Notes under the pieces: generated by a model | Database searches by the model: none | Told to the model about the DNA's origin: nothing | Seen by the model: only the letters and a program-made list of their open reading frames with translations | Assembly: GCA_965285935.1 (NCBI GenBank) | Contig: OZ260664.1 | Coordinates: 65,038,001 to 65,102,000, forward strand | Source of the DNA: Ophelia neglecta | Lineage: Eukaryota | Direction of reading: 5' to 3' | Length of the DNA: 64,000 nucleotides | In this document: piece after piece, positions 1,913 through 50,743 of the stretch | How the letters are laid out: each line of letters begins with the position of its first letter | Position numbering within the stretch: the stretch's first letter is position 1 | Program-made: the position numbers and the translations under genes

Positions 1913-3423
1913 AAAAAGGCAGCATGTTGGTATATTAATGGTAGAAAGCAGCCTCATCTGGTTTATGTTTTTTTTATTTTGGCAAAACTAGTTACATGTC
2001 TAAGATCCAAACAACTCAAAAATTTAATCAGGTCTTTCATCAGTCTATTAGCAAGGCCTGCTTGAAGTAGTCTCCATCAACAACCTGATGGAGTAGAAGT
2101 CCCTGCTCTGGGCCTCTTGTATACTTATACACTCTATGTTTTCACTGCACAAGTAAAATTATTAAACTAGGAAACTGTCATTGGCACAAATACATATGTG
2201 TTTCTGTGTACACATATCAAAATACACAAAACTTGGCTTGACTAGGAAATACCTGACAACTGAATGTTAGAATATTAACCATATTCCATACATCATTACA
2301 ATTATCACTAAGAATTAATTCATTTCAAACCTAGTTATATTCAGAGCAATTGGATGATTTGGTTTATATCAACGGAAAGTTCTCATGATGAAAACATTTG
2401 TTAACTCATTCAGTCATAACTAAGGATGATCAGCCTTAGGTAATAATCAATTTATCAGGGAACAACCCCACCTGAATTCAAACCCACAGAGACACTACCA
2501 CCACAGTTAAGGAAACTTATATAGCGGTATGGTATATTACAAAGCAAAGTACCTGATCTCTCCTAGCTTTATATCATAATTGTATAACATAGTACCTGTC
2601 TGTTGTGTTTGTACACAGAGAGAGGAGAGAGTGGTTAGCCACAGAACCACACACAAAGTCTTGTCTCAGGTGGGCTGCTAATAACTTAAACTATTTTATT
2701 TGATGTTTGGGGCCCTTTCCAGTACATGTGTATTTACATGTATATGCCCATCATAGGCATTTTTAACAAAATTTACTTTTTTTATCTTTATGATAGCCAT
2801 CTAATAAGCTCGAAGGTGAGACTCCACACAACAGGAGGTGTATTCTGAATGAGAATGTCTACTCACAACTGAAGAGTTCCAGTAGAAAACAAATTTTGTA
2901 AGAAAGCATTCCACCTAATTAAATTGTCACATTGGCAAGAAATTAAAGTCGAGTGTAGAAATAAATGTCTATATTTCCTACCACCTACACAACACTCACA
3001 AAATCTCAGTTGATTAAATGTGATTAATGTGATCATTATGATAAGAGAACAAAAGGCACACAATTCTAGGGCAAAAATTGCCAGATGCACACCACTTTGT
3101 ACATTGAATGTCGAAATATAAACCCTAGTTTTTAATCAACATATATATAATATGATTTTAAGACAGCTGTATTTATTCTAGAGCCAAAGATCATTTATTA
3201 ACATCAAATAGCCAGAAATCATAACTCATAAATGAGCAAGCATACAACATGCAGTGAACAAGGGTAATTTTAAAAACTGTCCAGTATAAAGGCAGTATAA
3301 ATCCCAGCCTGATGCTTCTCAGTGGCGTTTGTGCCCGAGGGCACCTGTCATTGTTGTACATTATAGCAAGGTGCCTCAGGTTAGCAACCTCTGAACTCAA
3401 TGAAAACAAAAGTGAAAACTTAC

Positions 3424-3487
3424 CACTGTGTTTCAGCTTTGATCTGTGCCGAAATGCACCTCTTGTAGTACATAGTAAGTTGCCCAT
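3424..3487 (-). CDS. Candidate alternative first coding exon with an N-myristoylation/palmitoylation-like start (MGNLLCTTRGAFRHRSKLKHS + G)
   Basis: Kozak accATGG, 21 codons, donor GTG|GTAAGT, phase 1. Gly2, Cys6 and a basic patch. Confidence 0.65.
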
Positions 3488-5614
3488 GGTGTTGCCGCTG
3501 GTTGTATAGAGTACATATAATGACGACTGCTTCACAGCACCAAACTTCCATCAATAGTCAAACCTTAGAAAGATGTATCCTATATGGTCTAAAACCCTAC
3601 CATATTTGTTATAGCACACACTATTTGCACAGACTTTTTATCCAAATATAGAAAAATAATTGGCTGCTATTAGCTGGTTTTCCCTGGCAGTGATGAGCTT
3701 CGGCACACAAAGACAAAAGTCACCTAAATCCATCAGGTCTGTATTTTATAGGGTATTATTTACCAAACTATTAATTTCTGTCCAACTTCCCAAAATTCCA
3801 TCTGGTCAGCCCTGGAAACTTTGCTGAAAGTTGTTCAGTAATAACATGTTTATATTCACAGCTCAGTGTAGTCCATCAGTGTATAGATATGTTTTATAGC
3901 ATTTCTGTGAAGATATCTGAATAAAATTTTGGTGTGAGCTATAATTCCCAAATTTCAACCTCTATACACTGAGATATATTCTTAGACACTGGGGTTCTGA
4001 CTGGTCCATAGGCCACAGTGTGATAGCTGGTAGGAACCATGGGGAGATGAGGGCCTAGAGGTGACTATTATTTTGATAAAACAGCTGGCAGGAGGGCACT
4101 CCACAGCTAGTGGATATCCTAGCTTGGGCCTGAGGGTACACTCCCTGGGACACTCCAATACCTCCAAACATAAATGTTCATCAAGAACCTCGCCAGCTAA
4201 CGTCCTTGCTCTCCTCCCAGCTCTGAGTGGCTGCTGGTCTATTTACACATAAACATCACGATGCTGACCACTTTACAACTGATGGTGTTAATTAGACCTC
4301 AATTACTAATAAGAAATAACCACAACAAAGTCACCATCATCATCATATCAGCATGAATAATGAAGAAATATGACTTGGAGAAACATTTTTTTGTGGCCAC
4401 CATCATCTGATTCAGGAAGCACAGGAAAGATGAGCACTGTGTTAGGGACACTGACTTAAGGTGTACATCATCATTTAATATCAAGATGCTGAGTTCAGAA
4501 GTGAACCACCAGTAGGTGCTGATGAAGTGAACTATTTATGGTTTGAAAGCCATAATTACATATTATATGATGTAATTATATGACTGTCCAGTTGCTCTCC
4601 ATCAACCAGTGACTGATAGCAGACAGGCTGGTGAAATATCTAGAAAATAGTATACAATATCTCCAGGACAAAGAAACATCAGGTCAAATTGAATCCAGAC
4701 ACACCCATGAGGAAATAATGTTGATCCATTTGTCCCACGACATGCAATCCATTAACATCTGATATCTCGAATATAACAACTCAGTCACAGCCTAATTTCC
4801 TACACACCTTACTCCATGTACACTTATAGTGACTCCAACAGAAACTATCATAAAGTATGACATTGACTGATGTGAAGTTTTAACTACTTGGGGGAAACTG
4901 CACCAATCTGTGTGCCTTCTGGCAGGCTGGGTCATTGTGGACCTACTACATCCCTGCCTAGATAGGCTTCATTTAGCTCTACACTGATAACATGAGTTCA
5001 TGTTCATTCCAGTATTGTGTAAAGGTGAGCAGTAAATACTGATCAACAGATTCACTATCTACTCTACAGCATGGACAAAGCTGTTCAATCCTTGGTTACA
5101 TGTCTCTTGTTAACTAATTCACACCTAGGAGGGCTAGGTATGTGAAAGTTACAACAAACATTGGCAGTGCAAAAACCCCAGCTAAAGAAGAAATCATGCC
5201 GAATGTACCTGGGACTTTGTAGAAAATGTGGTAAGCCCATAATGACTAGGTAAAAATTAGGAAGGATGGTTATGCTGCTACATGTAGGCCCAAACCTATC
5301 GGGTAAATCATGTTGAGCAATGATAATTAATGACAAGTTGGGTATGTTGCTTAGTTAAACCGAGGCATATGGCCTGTCATCTACATCTCATCATCAAAGC
5401 AGCAGCTGAACCCCAAGCTGAACCCTTGACAAGATCTACCAATAGTCAAACTTCAACTTTAATGTGTATTAATGGCATTCATTAAAATCCAATTATCAGC
5501 ATCTCAGCTGAAAATGTTTGAACGAAATTCCTTGTTACACAAACTCTCCATCTTGGAGCAACAACACATGATCCTTGTCAAAACTGTGATGAGGTGTGTA
5601 TTTTACCATGCTAC

Positions 5615-8003: not shown

Positions 8004-8076
8004 CCCAGAAAATTGAGACTTCATTCAGCAAATCCTCAAGGGCCACAAATTCAGATGGTCTTAAATAATGAGCCAT
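8004..8076 (-). CDS. Candidate alternative first coding exon (MAHYLRPSEFVALEDLLNEVSIFW + G)
   Basis: Kozak aacATGG, 24 open codons with an amphipathic helix pattern, donor GGG|GTAAGT, phase 1. Confidence 0.65.
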
Positions 8077-15996: not shown

Positions 15997-16147
15997 CTGC
16001 TAATTTCTGCTCTCTGTATTTCTTCCACACTTTGCTGAGGGCACCTTCTTTTATGCCCCTCATCCGGTCACTCACACTTCTACTCCATTTGAAGTCCGGC
16101 TGCCAGCGGAAATCTCGAGGTTCCTTTTTCTCTGCCATGGTGGTCAT
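15997..16147 (-). CDS. Alternative first coding exon (MTTMAEKKEPRDFRWQPDFKWSRSVSDRMRGIKEGALSKVWKKYREQKLA + G)
   Basis: 50 open codons, strong Kozak accATGG at the second Met, donor CAG|GTAACC in phase 1. Protein-like composition with retained CpGs. The end REQKLA parallels REQA of the 21682 exon. Confidence 0.75.
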
Positions 16148-19506: not shown

Positions 19507-19582
19507 CTTTCAGCATGGCCTGTGTTACAGGCTGAAGGGGTGAATGAAATACTGTGGTAAAACTGAGACTGTCTACAGACAT
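19507..19582 (-). CDS. Candidate alternative first coding exon (MSVDSLSFTTVFHSPLQPVTQAMLK + G)
   Basis: 25 open codons from ATG, with a second in-frame gccATG, to a consensus donor AAG|GTAAGT in phase 1. Confidence 0.55.
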
Positions 19583-21681: not shown

Positions 21682-21718
21682 CAGCTTGTTCTCTGTCAGT
21701 CCTGTATGCCTTGGCATC
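21682..21718 (-). CDS. Small coding exon (DAKAYRTDREQA + G, phase 0/1)
   Basis: Acceptor tttttatttcAG and donor CTG|GTATGT. 37 nt, in frame with the large exon. Confidence 0.78.
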
Positions 21719-25349: not shown

Positions 25350-27668
25350 CTGTAGCCTTGTCCGATGACAGTCTGTACACTGGTGGGGTGAGGAGGGGCT
25401 GGGGAGGTCCTCTCCACGATGCTCCAGGGGTGAGGGGCTGGAGGAGGAGGCGGTCATAGGGGACACTGAAGACTCAGACTTCTGTTCTGGGCTGGTCGAT
25501 GGTAAACTTGATGAACTATAGGGGCTGGGTGTCCTGGACATGGAGTCACAGCGGTTCTTGTGACTGTCCACCTCTCCAATCACTACTCGGTCTGACAGTC
25601 TGTCAGGGGACACTCTCACTTTGAGGCTGTTCTTGTTGCCAGCAAAAGAAGCACTCTTGGCATGAGGGACTGTGGCTGACTTGACAAAGGCGTCATACTG
25701 GAAGTGATAACGTTTTTTGGCTGTGTTAGTATATCCAGTGGTTAACAGAGCCTCTGCAGACTGCACTCTATTTGGATTGCCGGCAGCTTTCTGTAGTCTT
25801 CTGCTGTACTGTTTTGGGTAGAACTTTTTGTGCATAGTGTCCAGCAAGCTGATTGATTGTGACATCTGTCCGTCCGTCTCCACCGGGTGGTGCTCTGGAC
25901 TGTGAGGAGTGTCAGACGTACTGGAGCTGCTACTCAGGCTCCTGTGATGTGATGAGTTCTGACTACATAGTGTGGAGGAGGGAGTGCTGCTCAACTCCAT
26001 GGCTTCTTCCTCCTCACTAGCTTCATCATTAGACTTGAGCACATCCTCTACAATCACAGGCATCTGGGGCTTGGCTCTGACACGGCGTGACTCCCTAGAA
26101 GGCACCAAGACAACCGGTGCTCCTTGTATGTCATTACACTTGTCATTACATGCCACACATAATGAAGTCTGGCCTCTCTCGGATGCCTCATCAGCTGACT
26201 TCATGTAGTCACACTGATTGGGCCTTTGATCATCCATTGTCACCAGACAATCCATTGGCTCTATTCCTATATTACACTGTGTAGAGTTGGCAGGATTCCT
26301 GCTTATATCACTGTCCAGTAGTTTATGCTTTTCTGCAACTGCACATTTTTGGCACTCCTCGCAAAACTCGGCAGACACAGGTCTATCACTTTGAACAAAG
26401 ATATCATTAACACTATCATTGTCTTTTAAATTGACTGCGGGCTGTGATTTACTGCCATCCTTACTTTCCTTATGAAGGCGTCTATCTAAACTAGATGTGG
26501 GGTAGTCTATGTTAGAGGGTGAAGGGTCAGTTCCCCGGCTTGGTTTCCGTCTATCTAGACTACTCTCAGAACTGCTCCTTCTGCCTCTGGCCAGTCTGGC
26601 AGTGGTACTTTTGAAGGTCTGTGTGCCTCTAGATACCTTATTGTCTGACACTTGGTCTATCATAGAGGGCACCACTAACTTAGATTCAGGGCTCTGACTC
26701 CTGCTCTTCTCCCGTGACCTGCTTCGCCGTTTACGGAGTTTCTTTTCAGGCGAGCTGGCACTGCGGCTGACTTTTAGCCTTGTTTCATGTTTGTCCAAGG
26801 CAGGAGGAGGGGGAATAGAAAGAACAGGCTGTCGTCTGCCAGCGGTGGGAGAGGTGAGCTCCACACAGGGGGAGAGGGGTGAAGTCACTGAGCCTTCTCC
26901 ACTCCCCACCTCCTTAGTGCCCATCATAGTGGGGGCCACACTCTTCAGACTCAAGGTGGTTGGAGGTGGCCAACGCTTTCGAAAGAAGTCCTTGGGAACA
27001 TCGGCTGATCCAGGGAGACTGGAGGGCTTCACAACATTCACAGGCTGAACACCATTAGTCCTAGAGTCAGAGTCGACTTTGGTAGTCTTTGATATTGAGT
27101 CCATAGATCGACTTGAAAATGTCTTGTTCCTGTTGACATCCTTTGAAAAGCTGTTTTGTTGGTCAATGTTTCTAGTATCAGTTACTTTCCTGCTCTCAGC
27201 TAGGCGACCACAACTGTTGCTAATGCATTTCAAACTGATGTTTTCCCCACTTGAAGAAGAATCACTCCTTTCCTTGTGATATCCATTTTCATTGCAATCA
27301 GAAGCATTGCTTTTCGCATTAAGGTTATTTTCACTAACAGGCCTAGACTTTCGCACATTATTACAGTTCAGCTGATCCATCTTATAGAGGTTTGAGGTTG
27401 ATTGCACATAGTAGTAATCCTTGCCTATGTTGTTTGGGGTAGAGCGGTAGTTGTAATCTCCCTTTACGTACACCTTCCAGTCCTGCTTTTTAAAGTTACA
27501 GCAGTTGGGTAGTTTGGGAGGAGGTGTCAGCGTTTTGGGCCGTTCTGCACGACGACGTAAACCTGGCAGTGTGTTATTCCAAGAATCTGTACTAGAGTTG
27601 GAACAGGCGTCATCCAGAAGGCTGTGGTCAGCTATCAGGTCATTCTGGGCAAATATGGACAGAAAGTC
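25350..27668 (-). CDS. Very large coding exon: 773 aa, Ser/Pro/Arg-rich, probably disordered (DFLSIFAQND...CTDCHRTRLQ)
   Basis: Overlaps the non-repetitive 732-aa ORF, whose frame extends 65 codons upstream to the acceptor ttttctttcAG (plus ctg 27669-71). Donor CAG|GTGAGT (plus actcac 25344-49). 2,319 nt, phase 0/0, GC higher than the flanks. Confidence 0.92.
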
Positions 27669-37250: not shown

Positions 37251-37424
37251 TATGTAATTGTATACCATTATCGGAGGACTGGGTAACATGGATTAGGTTT
37301 AGATGTGTTCATTTCACCATCTTTGTCTGCCATGGGCATATATATGAGCATATATGATATACACTGTCATTAACCAGGTACCTGTGACATACCACAGACA
37401 AGCAAGTGTACCAAGAGGGCCACA

Positions 37425-38692
37425 GAGGGCGACAAAGAGAAAGCCAGGCAAAGCTTGGGAGGAAGGCACAGAGGGAGCATGGCAGGAAGGCAGAGAGGGA
37501 GCACGACAGGAAGCCACAGGTGGATCCAAAGAGGTAGACAAAGAGGAAGCCAGAGAGGGAGCATGGCAGGAAGGCAGAGAGGGAGCAAGACAGGAAGCAA
37601 CAGGTGGATCCACAGAGGAAGACAAAGAGGAAGCCAGAGAGGGAGCATGGCAGGAAGGCAGAGAGGGAGCAAGACAGGAAGCAACAGGTGGATCCACAGA
37701 GGAAGACAAAGAGGAAGCCAGGGGGAGCTTGGCAGAAGGCAGAGAGGGAGCAAGACAGGAGCCACAGGTGGAGCAGCAGATGGAGACAAAGAGGAAGCCA
37801 GGGGGAGCATGGCAGAAGGCAGAGAGGGAGCAAGACAGGAGCCACAGGTGGAGCAGCAGATGGAGACAAAGAGGAAGCCAGGGGGAGCATGGCAGAAGGC
37901 AGAGAGGGAGCAAGACAGGAGCCACAGGTGGAGAAGCAGATGGAGACAAAGAGGAAGCCAGGGGGAGCATGGCAGAAGGCAGAGAGGGAGCAAGACAGGA
38001 GCCACAGGTGGAGCAGCAGATGGAGACAAAGAGGAAGCCAGGGGGAGCATGGCAGAAGGCAGAGAGGGAGCAAGACAGGAGCCACAGGTGGAGCAGCAGA
38101 TGGAGACAAAGAAGAAGCCAGGGGGAGCATGGCAGGAAGGCAGAGAGGGAGCAAGACAGGAAGCCACAGGTGGATCCACAGAGGGAGACAAAGAGGAAGC
38201 CAGAGAAGAGCATTACAGGAAGGCAGAGAGGGAGCAAGACAGGAAGCCACGGGTGGAGCAGCAGATGGAGACAAAGAGGAAGCCAGAGAGGGAGCATGGC
38301 AGGAAGGCAGAGAGGGAGCAAGACAGGAAGCCACAGGTGGAGCAGCTGATGGAGACAAAGAGGAAGCCAGAGAGGGAGCATGGCAGGAAGGCAGAGAGGG
38401 AGCAAGACAGGAAGCAACAGGTGGATCCACAGAGGGAGACAAAGAGGAAGCCAGGGGAGCATGGCAGGAAGGCAGAGAGGGAGCAAGACAGGAAGCCACA
38501 GGTGGAGCAGCAGATGGAGACAAAGAGGAAGCCAGAGAGGGAGCATGGCAGGAAGGCAGAGAGGGAGCAAGACAGGAAGCCACAGGTGGAGCAGCAGATG
38601 GAGACAAAGAGGAATCCAGAGAGGGAGCATGGCAGGAAGGCAGAGAGGGAGCAAGACAGGAAGCCACAGGTCGATCCACAGAGGGAGACAGA
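37425..38692. repeat. Purine-rich minisatellite, about 15 copies: 84-bp units flanking a central block of 80-bp units
   Basis: Period is 84 (37491 to 37575) at the flanks and 80 (37741, 37821, 37901, 37981, 38061) in the centre. It is the source of the overlapping ORFs in all frames. Confidence 0.97.
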
Positions 38693-41594
38693 GATGGTGG
38701 GGGAGAGAATGAGAAGTATATATACAATGTGCATGATCTCTTTGGGTGTCAACGGGGAAACAAACGACACTGAATACATTTACAGATATAATTCTGCTAT
38801 ATTGTACATCACTCAGACAAGTACACAACACTGCCTGCCCGTTCCCAAGGCTATCACATGCTGGGCTCATTCAATGGTCTATTAAATATGTAAGGGGCAG
38901 CCTCACTCAACTGTGACCACACAGTGCACTGCCCCTCATTACTCACACAAATTACTGAGACCACACAAACTTGGAAATGTATTGTCTGCAAATAAGGAGT
39001 TCTATCTATACACAGATTAAACAAACAATAAATCACTTCATTGGCCTTGGCTTGCATTATTTCAGTACATTTCACAAATGACAAGAACAAGAGAGATGAC
39101 AGCATGTACATGTAGCTCATGAATGTCTGAGATCTGATTACACCTGCAGAGGCATCATCAAAATCATGATATCACTGCTGTATCCTCAGTGATGAGATAA
39201 TTAATTGGCAAAATAAACCTTCATTTATTTCTCGTGTCATCTAATTAAGGTTTGATGTCACTCTTCTCTGCTGGGCGCCAATGCACATCTTCCAACAACA
39301 TGAAAATGCTGCCAATTGGAAATCTGTCCTCCGCAGGTGACTTTGGTTTACATTTTAAGCGATCAATTTGGTCTATCCACCCAGCAGGTTTTATCCTATC
39401 TCTGGCAACAAATTGTAGACTGTTGACACTTTCACCCTAGGTAATTTGGACCCAATGTGAGTTAATGTGGCCATGTGCTGTTGGCTTGGACAGAGATGGA
39501 TTTGGACAGTTGTCACAATGAATGAATACTTACCAGACCTCAGTGATTTACTGTTTGTAATGAACTTTCAAAAGGTCACCCAAATGGTACTTCAAATAAT
39601 CTGAAGGTGCCAGGAGTCTTCCTTTTGATAGAGCCCAGCTTGCCCTATTTCATGTAATAACACAAAGAGACAACCATGTATAATCCTAACACCTTGTATA
39701 CTGTACATGTGTCATGGGGTAACCTTCATCTTGTCAACTTAGGCGTTGTACTAGTAACAGATTGGAAACTTATAAGATGAATCACCCTTCAAGAATAGTT
39801 AACAACCGCCAGATTGCAGGTCTCCTCTGCATCCATGTGATTCTTTTTGATATGATTTTACTCCCAAAATAACATTACATTAAGATCAATAATGGACAAC
39901 CTGCTTAGCACACAAAGTTTTATGAAGTGTTTTCAATCTGAGCTGTGTTCACAGTCTGTAAAGAATTAGACCAAGCCTGTCAGAGTAGCTGTGAATCATA
40001 ACAGATAGCTATTGACCACATCAATTTGAGTAAGTGTTATTTTTCCACCTAAGTATTTCCTCTGGTAAATGTATCCAATGACTGAAACTTACAAGTCCCG
40101 AGTAGTGAACTGGGATTGAGGGCACTGGCGGTGGCGGTCAGACAAGAAAAGAGGCATTTAGATATGTATGCCCCACATTGAAGGTGAATTGTCCATGGAC
40201 ACAGGTCCCACAATAAAAAAAAAGCCTAATGGAGGGTAACCTTGAAATGTGAAAAATAATGATAATCAAATCCATCAAAATTTACTTACACACATACCAT
40301 CCTATTTTCAGTCTTGCAAAATTTAAGATTTTGTCTTAAAATTGAAAATTTTAGACATAGTTTAGCCAAGGAAACAATTGTGGGTACCACCAAATGCCCA
40401 GCATATTAAAAAAAAAGAAAGAAAAGCAATTAACAGTGGTAAGATATCATCAATCCCAATTCTGATACAAATGGTTAAATCATGGCGGAAAAAAGCCAAT
40501 GAATTTTACAGGATGGCCTTGAAAATTTGCACCCATGGTCAAGTCTGAGGATTTCATCAGATCTATTATATATGCTTAACTGGCTGGTTTTGTGTATGCC
40601 CTCAATCCATTCTATCGCCTTGCTGGTTGAAAAGAATAGAGAGCAGTAAAATCGAATTATTATTGTGAGGGGCCCAGCATGTAATTTCCTTTTAGCTCCA
40701 AATGCATTTCTATGCACAATGCTGGTAAAAGACTATAACTAGGAGTTTTGTAACTTGACTTTAAAGATATAGGTTTAGTGTTTCTGAGAAATCACCACCA
40801 GATTCATACTTTAGATTCATGTAAGTTCCCATTAATGATGCTGTTAAACTACTTTTGCCATTCACAAAGCCTAAACACATAACGATGATGTGGAAAATTA
40901 TTTCTGTTAAACATAAGGTTGGGGCAATAACAATGTGTACTGATGTACATACCTCTTTCAGCCTTTCAGCTATTCCATATTTGCAGTTCCATTTTTATAC
41001 AATTCATAAGTAATTGTATCATCTACATACATAATATCTAATCCAGAATATATCTGTACCTCCCTTTTTTCTTCAAAACAGGTGGGGGACAACAATCTTA
41101 AGGTGGTCCAATGTGAGAGCTGTTCCTGTTCCTCTCCCACCAGCCCAGTAACTAGACTGATGCGTATCTATCTTCATGCCACCAGCTCAGAATATGCCAC
41201 ATAATGTGAAGAAAATGAGCACTATAGTGCTTGTTCACTGTAGTACCGATAAACAGACTTCCAAGAGGAAGATTGTAGCTAAATTATTTTTCAAATAATC
41301 AGTGTCTTTCTTCTTCTAGGACCTATTACCACTGAAAACACTAGAACATCTTACCCTAACCAATCACATGTCAGGTAATGTTTGTGATAAATAATGCTCA
41401 ATTTCAACATTTTTTTGGCAGCACTCCAGGTAATATATTGCATACTTCAACAACTTGAAAGAAACTGTTGAGATTGATCAATAAAACAGTGGTGTTAGTA
41501 AGGTCGATAAAACAGTGCTGTTAGTAAGGACAATACTGGGGTTGAATGATGTGATTAAAAAAATGCACATCAGTAAACAAGAAAAATAGATACA

Positions 41595-50666: not shown

Positions 50667-50743
50667 CTGAGCTTGTTTGAGATAGAGCTCGATTTCCCGA
50701 TACTCATCATCAATGCTGAGGCAACTCATTTTGCACTCCTTTC
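50667..50743 (-). CDS. Coding exon (KECKMSCLSIDDEYREIELYLKQAQ); may contain the start codon
   Basis: Acceptor CAG (plus ctg 50744-46) and donor CAG|GTAAGT (plus acttac 50661-66). 77 nt, open frame, phase-0 end matching the next exon, helical protein-like composition. Confidence 0.8.

What the first reader, a model, noticed from the sequence alone, without database searches (positions are those of the whole stretch)
3424..3487. Leader exon encoding a putative dual-acylation plus polybasic membrane anchor (MGNLLCTTRGAFRHRSKLKHS)
Seen: Kozak accATGG, Gly2, Cys6, five K/R residues and a GTAAGT donor. Established: Met-Gly-x-x-x-Ser/Thr/Cys is the N-myristoyltransferase pattern, and a nearby Cys or basic patch supplies the second membrane signal, as in Src-family SH4 domains. 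Inference: promoter choice would produce a membrane-tethered isoform. I know of no such lipid-anchored isoform for DLC-family RhoGAPs.
Basis: partly seen in the sequence, partly recalled or inferred. Interest (0 to 1): 0.7.

Follow-up and report, generated by a model that had tools for sequence, protein, structure and literature searches.

The report
Likely lipid-anchored RhoGAP leader exon
This short stretch is likely one of several alternative starts of an invertebrate's DLC-type Rho-switch-off gene, and it encodes a tip predicted to receive a fatty-acid membrane anchor, which would be new for this family but has no RNA or related-species support yet.

Summary
The 64-nt segment is phase 1 and joins in frame to the SAM exon of an intact DLC/ARHGAP7 gene 19.4 kb downstream, giving a 1183-aa SAM-RhoGAP-START model. 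It lies among three other phase-1 Kozak-plus-donor segments; one is homologous to a vertebrate DLC1 first exon. Chance gives about 0.2 strong-Kozak segments in this interval against 3 seen. The peptide fits a published NMT motif at positions 2-6 but not 7. Myristoyl, Cys and basic signals occur together in 0.04% of simulated leaders. Against: no RNA evidence; no homologue among 329 DLC N-terminal segments; 0 of 264 distinct DLC starts fit the motif, though no close relative was available. Palmitoylation of a lone Cys6 is doubtful. Estimates: real exon about 0.8, myristoylated membrane-tethered isoform about 0.5, dual acylation about 0.3. Promoter-switched lipid anchors are known in other genes; my searches found none for DLC. 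The scan noted a similar unproven case in SHP2 in another genome, nothing on this gene.

The parts
3424..3487 (-). Coding part of candidate alternative first exon, 64 nt, phase 1, 21-aa leader with Gly2, Cys6 and 5 K/R
   Evidence: Sequence; in-frame spliced model of 1183 aa; chance tests
3484..3490 (-). Start-codon context ACCATGG
3418..3423 (-). 5' splice donor GTAAGT, preceded by G; predicted intron of 19,362 nt to the SAM exon outside the window (G000:C7:65022061)
15997..16138 (-). Conserved alternative first exon, phase 1, ACCATGG; homologue of a vertebrate DLC1/STARD13 short first exon. Positive control for the architecture
   Evidence: phmmer E<0.01 to 32 of 329 pre-SAM segments
8004..8076 (-). 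Further candidate alternative first exon, phase 1, 24 aa, starts Met-Ala; no homologue found
21682..21718 (-). 37-nt linking exon (phase 0 to 1) that likely joins the long isoform to the SAM exon
   Evidence: its end resembles the pre-SAM ends of Lingula and hemichordate proteins by eye; in frame
25350..27668 (-). Large exon of the long isoform; 3' end at a phase-0 donor; 5' edge approximate, read from the translation only
50667..50729 (-). Likely first coding exon of the long isoform, phase-0 donor; resembles bivalve and Lingula long-isoform starts
   Evidence: weak tblastn hits (E 0.6-4.5) from 4 independent queries

Best explanation
The segment is a phase-1 open frame that fits the SAM exon of an intact DLC RhoGAP gene; it is likely a real, probably lineage-specific alternative first exon whose product is predicted to be N-myristoylated on Gly2 and would be held at membranes by that lipid plus the basic patch, with Cys6 palmitoylation possible but less likely. 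Shown: sequence, phase, intact 1183-aa frame, sibling phase-1 segments, rarity by chance. Inferred: a promoter upstream of 3487; splicing across 19.4 kb; Met removal and myristoylation by NMT; weak lipid anchoring strengthened by R9, R13, R15, K17 and K19 on acidic lipids; delivery of the GAP domain to membrane-bound Rho without the adaptor proteins vertebrate DLCs are known to use. Promoter choice would then switch the GAP between adaptor-recruited and self-anchored forms.
For: In frame with 13 downstream exons, no stop until the end; RhoGAP and START hits at the locus. Donor stronger than 8 of 12 internal donors. Strong-Kozak phase-1 segments 3 seen vs 0.23 expected; RCCATGG 2 vs 0.007. A neighbouring segment of the same build is conserved to vertebrates. 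Several invertebrate DLC genes are annotated with different short leaders on the same SAM exon, and human DLC1-3 use alternative promoters with different N-termini and locations (PMC5118400, passages). Fits M-G-[^DEFRWY]-x-[^DEKR]-[ACGST] as quoted in PMC9018777, where a Ser6-to-Cys mutant kept membrane binding and a basic residue 7 was not obligatory. Among 40,000 simulated open frames starting ATGG: NMT pattern 3.1%; pattern + Cys + net charge >=4 0.04%. The 181-nt stretch had one match (itself) in the genome, and the linker exon found a single gene copy.
Against: No transcript evidence was obtained. No homologue: 0 of 6 candidates at E<=10; 0 of 329 pre-SAM segments at E<0.01, where the control exon hit 32. 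0 of 264 distinct Met-initiated DLC N-termini fit the NMT pattern; 12 start Met-Gly. That set is vertebrate-heavy, and the best full-length relative is only 57% identical over aligned exons. Thr7 misses the preferred K/R. A lone Cys5 after Met-Gly-Asn-Thr was poorly palmitoylated in PMC9018777, and the Cys6 result there was with Cys3 present. Two out-of-frame ATGs lie 29 and 64 nt upstream, in weak context. Any in-frame ATG + phase-1 donor arises about 1.8 times by chance here. The tests were post hoc, and a scan of many windows selects striking cases.
Confidence: 0.5

Rival explanations
1. A real alternative first exon whose peptide is incidental. The promoter serves tissue-specific expression; Gly2 follows from the G at +4 of the Kozak context; the protein is not stably membrane-anchored by the leader.
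For: 17% of ATGG-started frames begin Met-Gly. Leaders on the SAM exon vary freely between species. The other two non-conserved candidates look arbitrary. No conservation found.
Against: The full set of signals appears in 0.04% of simulated frames, and NMT pattern plus either second signal in 1.4%. NMT acts on sequence, so a matching start could be modified whether or not it was selected (inference).
Confidence: 0.25
2. Intronic sequence that resembles an exon by chance and is never spliced.
For: No transcript evidence and no homologue. About 1.8 ATG + donor segments are expected by chance. No informative promoter feature: CpG o/e 0.23 vs 0.28 gene-wide.
Against: With strong Kozak and Met-Gly the simulated chance of at least one is 0.033; with a Cys in the first 10 residues it was 0 of 150. 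Build identical to the conserved sibling exon.
Confidence: 0.2
3. A real leader that targets by another route, such as a mitochondrial presequence or a basic nuclear signal.
For: Arg/Ser/Thr-rich with no acidic residue. One human DLC1 isoform is described as a putative mitochondrial protein (PMC5118400).
Against: Only modest helical hydrophobic moment (best 0.52 over 11 residues, recalled Eisenberg scale, no control). Acidic residues follow at once in the SAM exon.
Confidence: 0.05

Closest known systems
DLC family RhoGAPs (DLC1/ARHGAP7, DLC2/STARD13, DLC3/STARD8, Drosophila Cv-c) and their alternative-promoter isoforms
   Same: SAM-linker-RhoGAP-START layout; several first exons feeding one SAM exon; one sibling exon homologous to a vertebrate DLC1 first exon; isoforms differ in N-terminus and location (PMC5118400, passages).
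   Different: Membrane binding described for DLC1 and DLC3 uses internal polybasic regions (PMC11253157, passages; 0 occurrences of myristoyl or palmitoyl in its main text). No sampled DLC start fits the NMT pattern (0 of 264).
Sperm hexokinase HK1S
   Same: An isoform-specific N-terminus from alternative 5' exons carries Gly2 and a nearby Cys and redirects the enzyme to the plasma membrane (PMC4736023, abstract and passages).
   Different: HK1S is tested and conserved across mammals, with Cys5; here nothing is tested, Cys is at 6, and no conservation was found.
NADH-cytochrome b5 reductase isoforms
   Same: One gene gives a myristoylated membrane form and non-myristoylated forms from an alternative promoter (PMC2289487, search listing only).
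   Different: Metabolic enzyme; there the myristoylated form is the general one.
Src-family SH4 domains and G-alpha-o/i N-termini
   Same: Gly2 plus Cys and/or basic residues as a two-signal anchor (G-alpha-o: PMC9018777 sections 7-8; Src family: recalled).
   Different: Those are constitutive, conserved N-termini. G-alpha-o has Cys3 and Ser6. This leader has a single Cys at 6 and a dispersed basic patch from residue 9.

Membership tests
DLC/ARHGAP7 RhoGAP gene | SAM, RhoGAP and START domains in one frame | tested here: met
   RhoGAP and START over Pfam cut-off at the locus; first SAM exon 88% identical to Lingula, Pfam SAM_2 only E=0.016 on 23 aa, below cut-off; one open 1183-aa model
DLC/ARHGAP7 RhoGAP gene | Best database matches are DLC proteins | tested here: met
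   Named top hits are ARHGAP7/DLC1/STARD13
Alternative first coding exon | ATG, open frame and donor in phase with the shared acceptor | tested here: met
Alternative first coding exon | Transcribed from its own start and spliced | not testable with these tools
   No RNA run was offered for this organism
Alternative first coding exon | Conserved in relatives | tested here: inconclusive
   No homologue, but no close relative was available
NMT substrate | Gly2; allowed residues at 3 and 5; A/C/G/S/T at 6 | tested here: met
   Gly2, Asn3, Leu5, Cys6 against the motif quoted in PMC9018777
NMT substrate | K/R at position 7 (preferred, not obligatory) | tested here: not met
   Thr7
NMT substrate | Myristate incorporation | not testable with these tools
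   No predictor or assay available
SH4-type dual-signal anchor | Second signal present (Cys or basic cluster near the N-terminus) | tested here: met
   Cys6; 5 K/R and no D/E in 21 aa
SH4-type dual-signal anchor | Cys is S-acylated and membrane binding depends on Gly2 | not testable with these tools
   Literature is mixed for a lone Cys at 5-6

The most novel reading that the evidence does not exclude
This invertebrate makes, by promoter choice, the first lipid-anchored DLC RhoGAP: an N-myristoylated, possibly also S-palmitoylated, isoform that reaches membrane Rho directly, as one of four interchangeable N-terminal address tags on a single SAM-GAP-START core.
Probability: 0.45. Interest if true: 0.55.

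Novelty: new variant of a known kind. Interest (0 to 1): 0.36.

Why it matters
Where a RhoGAP sits decides where Rho is switched off. DLC proteins are described as reaching membranes through binding partners and internal basic patches. A lipid-anchored isoform chosen at the promoter would add a third route and show how a short new first exon can re-address a conserved signalling enzyme. The principle is known from other genes and this case looks lineage-specific, so the interest is moderate unless it proves conserved across its clade.

Tried and rejected
RNA evidence: the run search listed 3 holders from one sample and study, none on record as RNA ('no RNA holder listed', not evidence either way). 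Their contigs run through introns and showed no joints, so they behave as DNA. Variation within the exon among those runs was not obtained and stays open. Direct leader search: 6 candidates, none at E<=10; a 21-residue signal is near the limit of this search. Retrocopy that might preserve the splice: the second START hit is an intronless MENTAL-START gene, not DLC, and the linker exon found one copy only. Internal-exon reading: my scan for strong internal exons with phase-0 or phase-1 entry and phase-1 exit returned 3, not this one; reading by eye, a weak AG 11 nt upstream of the ATG would be in frame only from a phase-2 donor, and none was identified. Link-exon alternative: the 37-nt linking exon lies upstream of the leader, so the leader must join the SAM exon directly. 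The bacterial promoter scan is irrelevant to an animal gene. Pfam found nothing on three leaders. Earlier-finding look-ups by place returned nothing. Literature: searches listed no paper whose title or abstract start reports a myristoylated or palmitoylated DLC. Of their listed papers I opened only PMC11253157, PMC4161385, PMC5118400, PMC13082882 and PMC4736023 (passages), so absence is not established. PMC12858966 and PMC11094379 (passages) added little. Supplementary myristoylome tables were not consulted and could bear on the novelty claim.

Full report
Observation. On the minus strand the window reads ACC ATG, 21 open codons (MGNLLCTTRGAFRHRSKLKHS), one G, then GTAAGT. The segment is 64 nt long, so it ends in phase 1. 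A 181-nt stretch around it matched only itself in the genome (that search skips common words, so this is not proof of rarity).

The gene. The window is G000:C7:65038001-65102000 of a 762-Mb animal genome. RhoGAP and START hits lie 29-32 kb past the window's left edge on the same strand. The first SAM exon starts at C7:65022061 and needs a phase-1 donor. Splicing the leader to it and to 12 further exons, all with AG acceptors, gives one open frame of 1183 aa. Named best matches are ARHGAP7/DLC1/STARD13 proteins of molluscs, Lingula, amphioxus and hemichordates. The best full-length relative is 57% identical over aligned exons, so no near relative was available. A lophotrochozoan origin is my inference. 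The linker exon found one copy in the genome.

Architecture. Upstream of the SAM exon I find a long-isoform path (50729-50667, a large exon ending at 25350, a 37-nt link at 21718-21682). Four phase-1 ATG-to-donor segments lie between that link and the SAM exon: 16138-15997, 8076-8004, 3487-3424 and one 2.4 kb left of the window. All four are in frame with the core. The first is homologous to a vertebrate DLC1/STARD13 first exon: phmmer E<0.01 to 32 of 329 pre-SAM segments. This shows that the gene has leaders of this build. Annotated DLC genes of Nematostella, Ptychodera, Lytechinus, Apostichopus and Branchiostoma each carry several unrelated short leaders. Human DLC1-3 use alternative promoters, with isoforms that differ in N-terminus and apparently location (PMC5118400, passages).

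Is it more than chance as an exon? With an approximate donor matrix (recalled frequencies) the donor scores 5.9, above 8 of the gene's 12 internal donors. In the 37.6-kb interval, 150 Markov simulations give 1.8 ATG-plus-donor segments (4 seen), 0.23 with strong Kozak (3 seen), 0.007 with RCCATGG (2 seen) and 0.08 with Met-Gly (1 seen). The conserved sibling falls below this donor threshold and is not counted. Real sequence used as background (264 kb plus strand, 162 kb minus strand outside the gene) gave 15 segments, 2 with strong Kozak and none with Met-Gly. The criteria were post hoc. I put a real exon at about 0.8.

Is the peptide a lipid anchor? The NMT motif quoted in PMC9018777 (sections 7 and 8 read; the original Castrec paper not seen) is met at positions 2, 3, 5 and 6. 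It is missed at 7, which that paper says is not obligatory. There a Ser6-to-Cys mutant kept membrane binding and appeared palmitoylated, but with Cys3 also present; a lone Cys5 after Met-Gly-Asn-Thr was a poor palmitoylation site. Myristate alone binds weakly and usually needs a Cys or basic second signal (PMC4736023, passages). The leader has 5 K/R, 2 His and no acidic residue. Among 40,000 simulated open frames starting ATGG, 17% start Met-Gly, 3.1% fit the NMT pattern, 1.4% add either second signal and 0.04% add both. That favours function, tempered by the scan's selection of striking cases. Given a real exon I put myristoylation with membrane tethering at about 0.6-0.65, and Cys6 palmitoylation at roughly half of those cases or a little more.

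Conservation, the result against. A direct search gave 0 of 6 candidates at E<=10. Of 521 proteins gathered, 352 had the SAM motif and 343 of these began with Met, giving 264 distinct starts. Twelve begin Met-Gly and none fits the NMT pattern. The leader matched 0 of 329 pre-SAM segments at E<0.01. The sample is vertebrate-heavy and shows only some isoforms per cluster. It argues against an ancient family-wide isoform but says little about the animal's own clade.

Expression. No RNA run was listed; the three holders behave as DNA. This is neither support nor refutation. Two out-of-frame ATGs in weak context lie 29 and 64 nt upstream, and no informative promoter signal was seen.

Mechanism. Likely: a separate promoter yields a transcript that splices this exon to the SAM exon; Met is removed and NMT adds myristate to Gly2; the basic patch, and possibly palmitate on Cys6, stabilises binding; the GAP domain is held beside membrane Rho. 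Only the sequence, phase and intact frame are shown.

Comparison and novelty. It is a DLC gene by the tests met. Isoform-specific acylated N-termini are known (HK1S, PMC4736023; cytochrome b5 reductase, PMC2289487, listing only). DLC membrane binding is described through internal polybasic regions (PMC11253157, passages). Six searches listed no report of an acylated DLC, judged mostly from titles and abstract starts; supplements were not consulted. The scan holds one analogous unproven note on SHP2 in another genome, not checked here and not used as support. Verdict: new variant of a known kind; interest 0.36.

Noticed in passing
window 15997-16138 (-): Alternative first exon homologous to a vertebrate DLC1/STARD13 short first exon; similar leaders appear in arthropod, priapulid, hemichordate, echinoderm and cephalopod proteins (by eye). 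This suggests a first exon conserved across bilaterians, better supported than the finding itself.
   Followed up: partly
L004, G000:C7:65035620-65035536 (-), 2.4 kb left of the window: A fourth phase-1 candidate first exon with GCCATGG and GTAAGT, 28 aa with three Cys and several Met; no homologue found.
   Followed up: partly
window 8004-8076 (-): Candidate first exon, 24 aa, acidic and hydrophobic, donor score 6.3; no homologue found.
   Followed up: partly
window 19507-19531 (-): 25-nt segment with strong acceptor and donor scores (phase 0 to 1), a possible alternative linking micro-exon.
   Followed up: no
L003:571-2079 (+), G000:C1 near 96.54 Mb: A 502-codon uninterrupted frame with MENTAL and START domains (STARD3/MLN64-like), apparently intronless, so possibly a retrogene.
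   Followed up: partly
window about 860-1900 and 37300-38900: Two tandem-repeat tracts inside introns, open in several frames; no Pfam family over cut-off for the one frame tested.
   Followed up: no
P0006, P0007, P0009 N-termini: Bivalve and octopus short DLC isoforms share a Leu-Cys-aromatic pattern within their first 5-15 residues, without Gly2, joined to the linking exon. It may be a separate Cys-based targeting leader.
   Followed up: no
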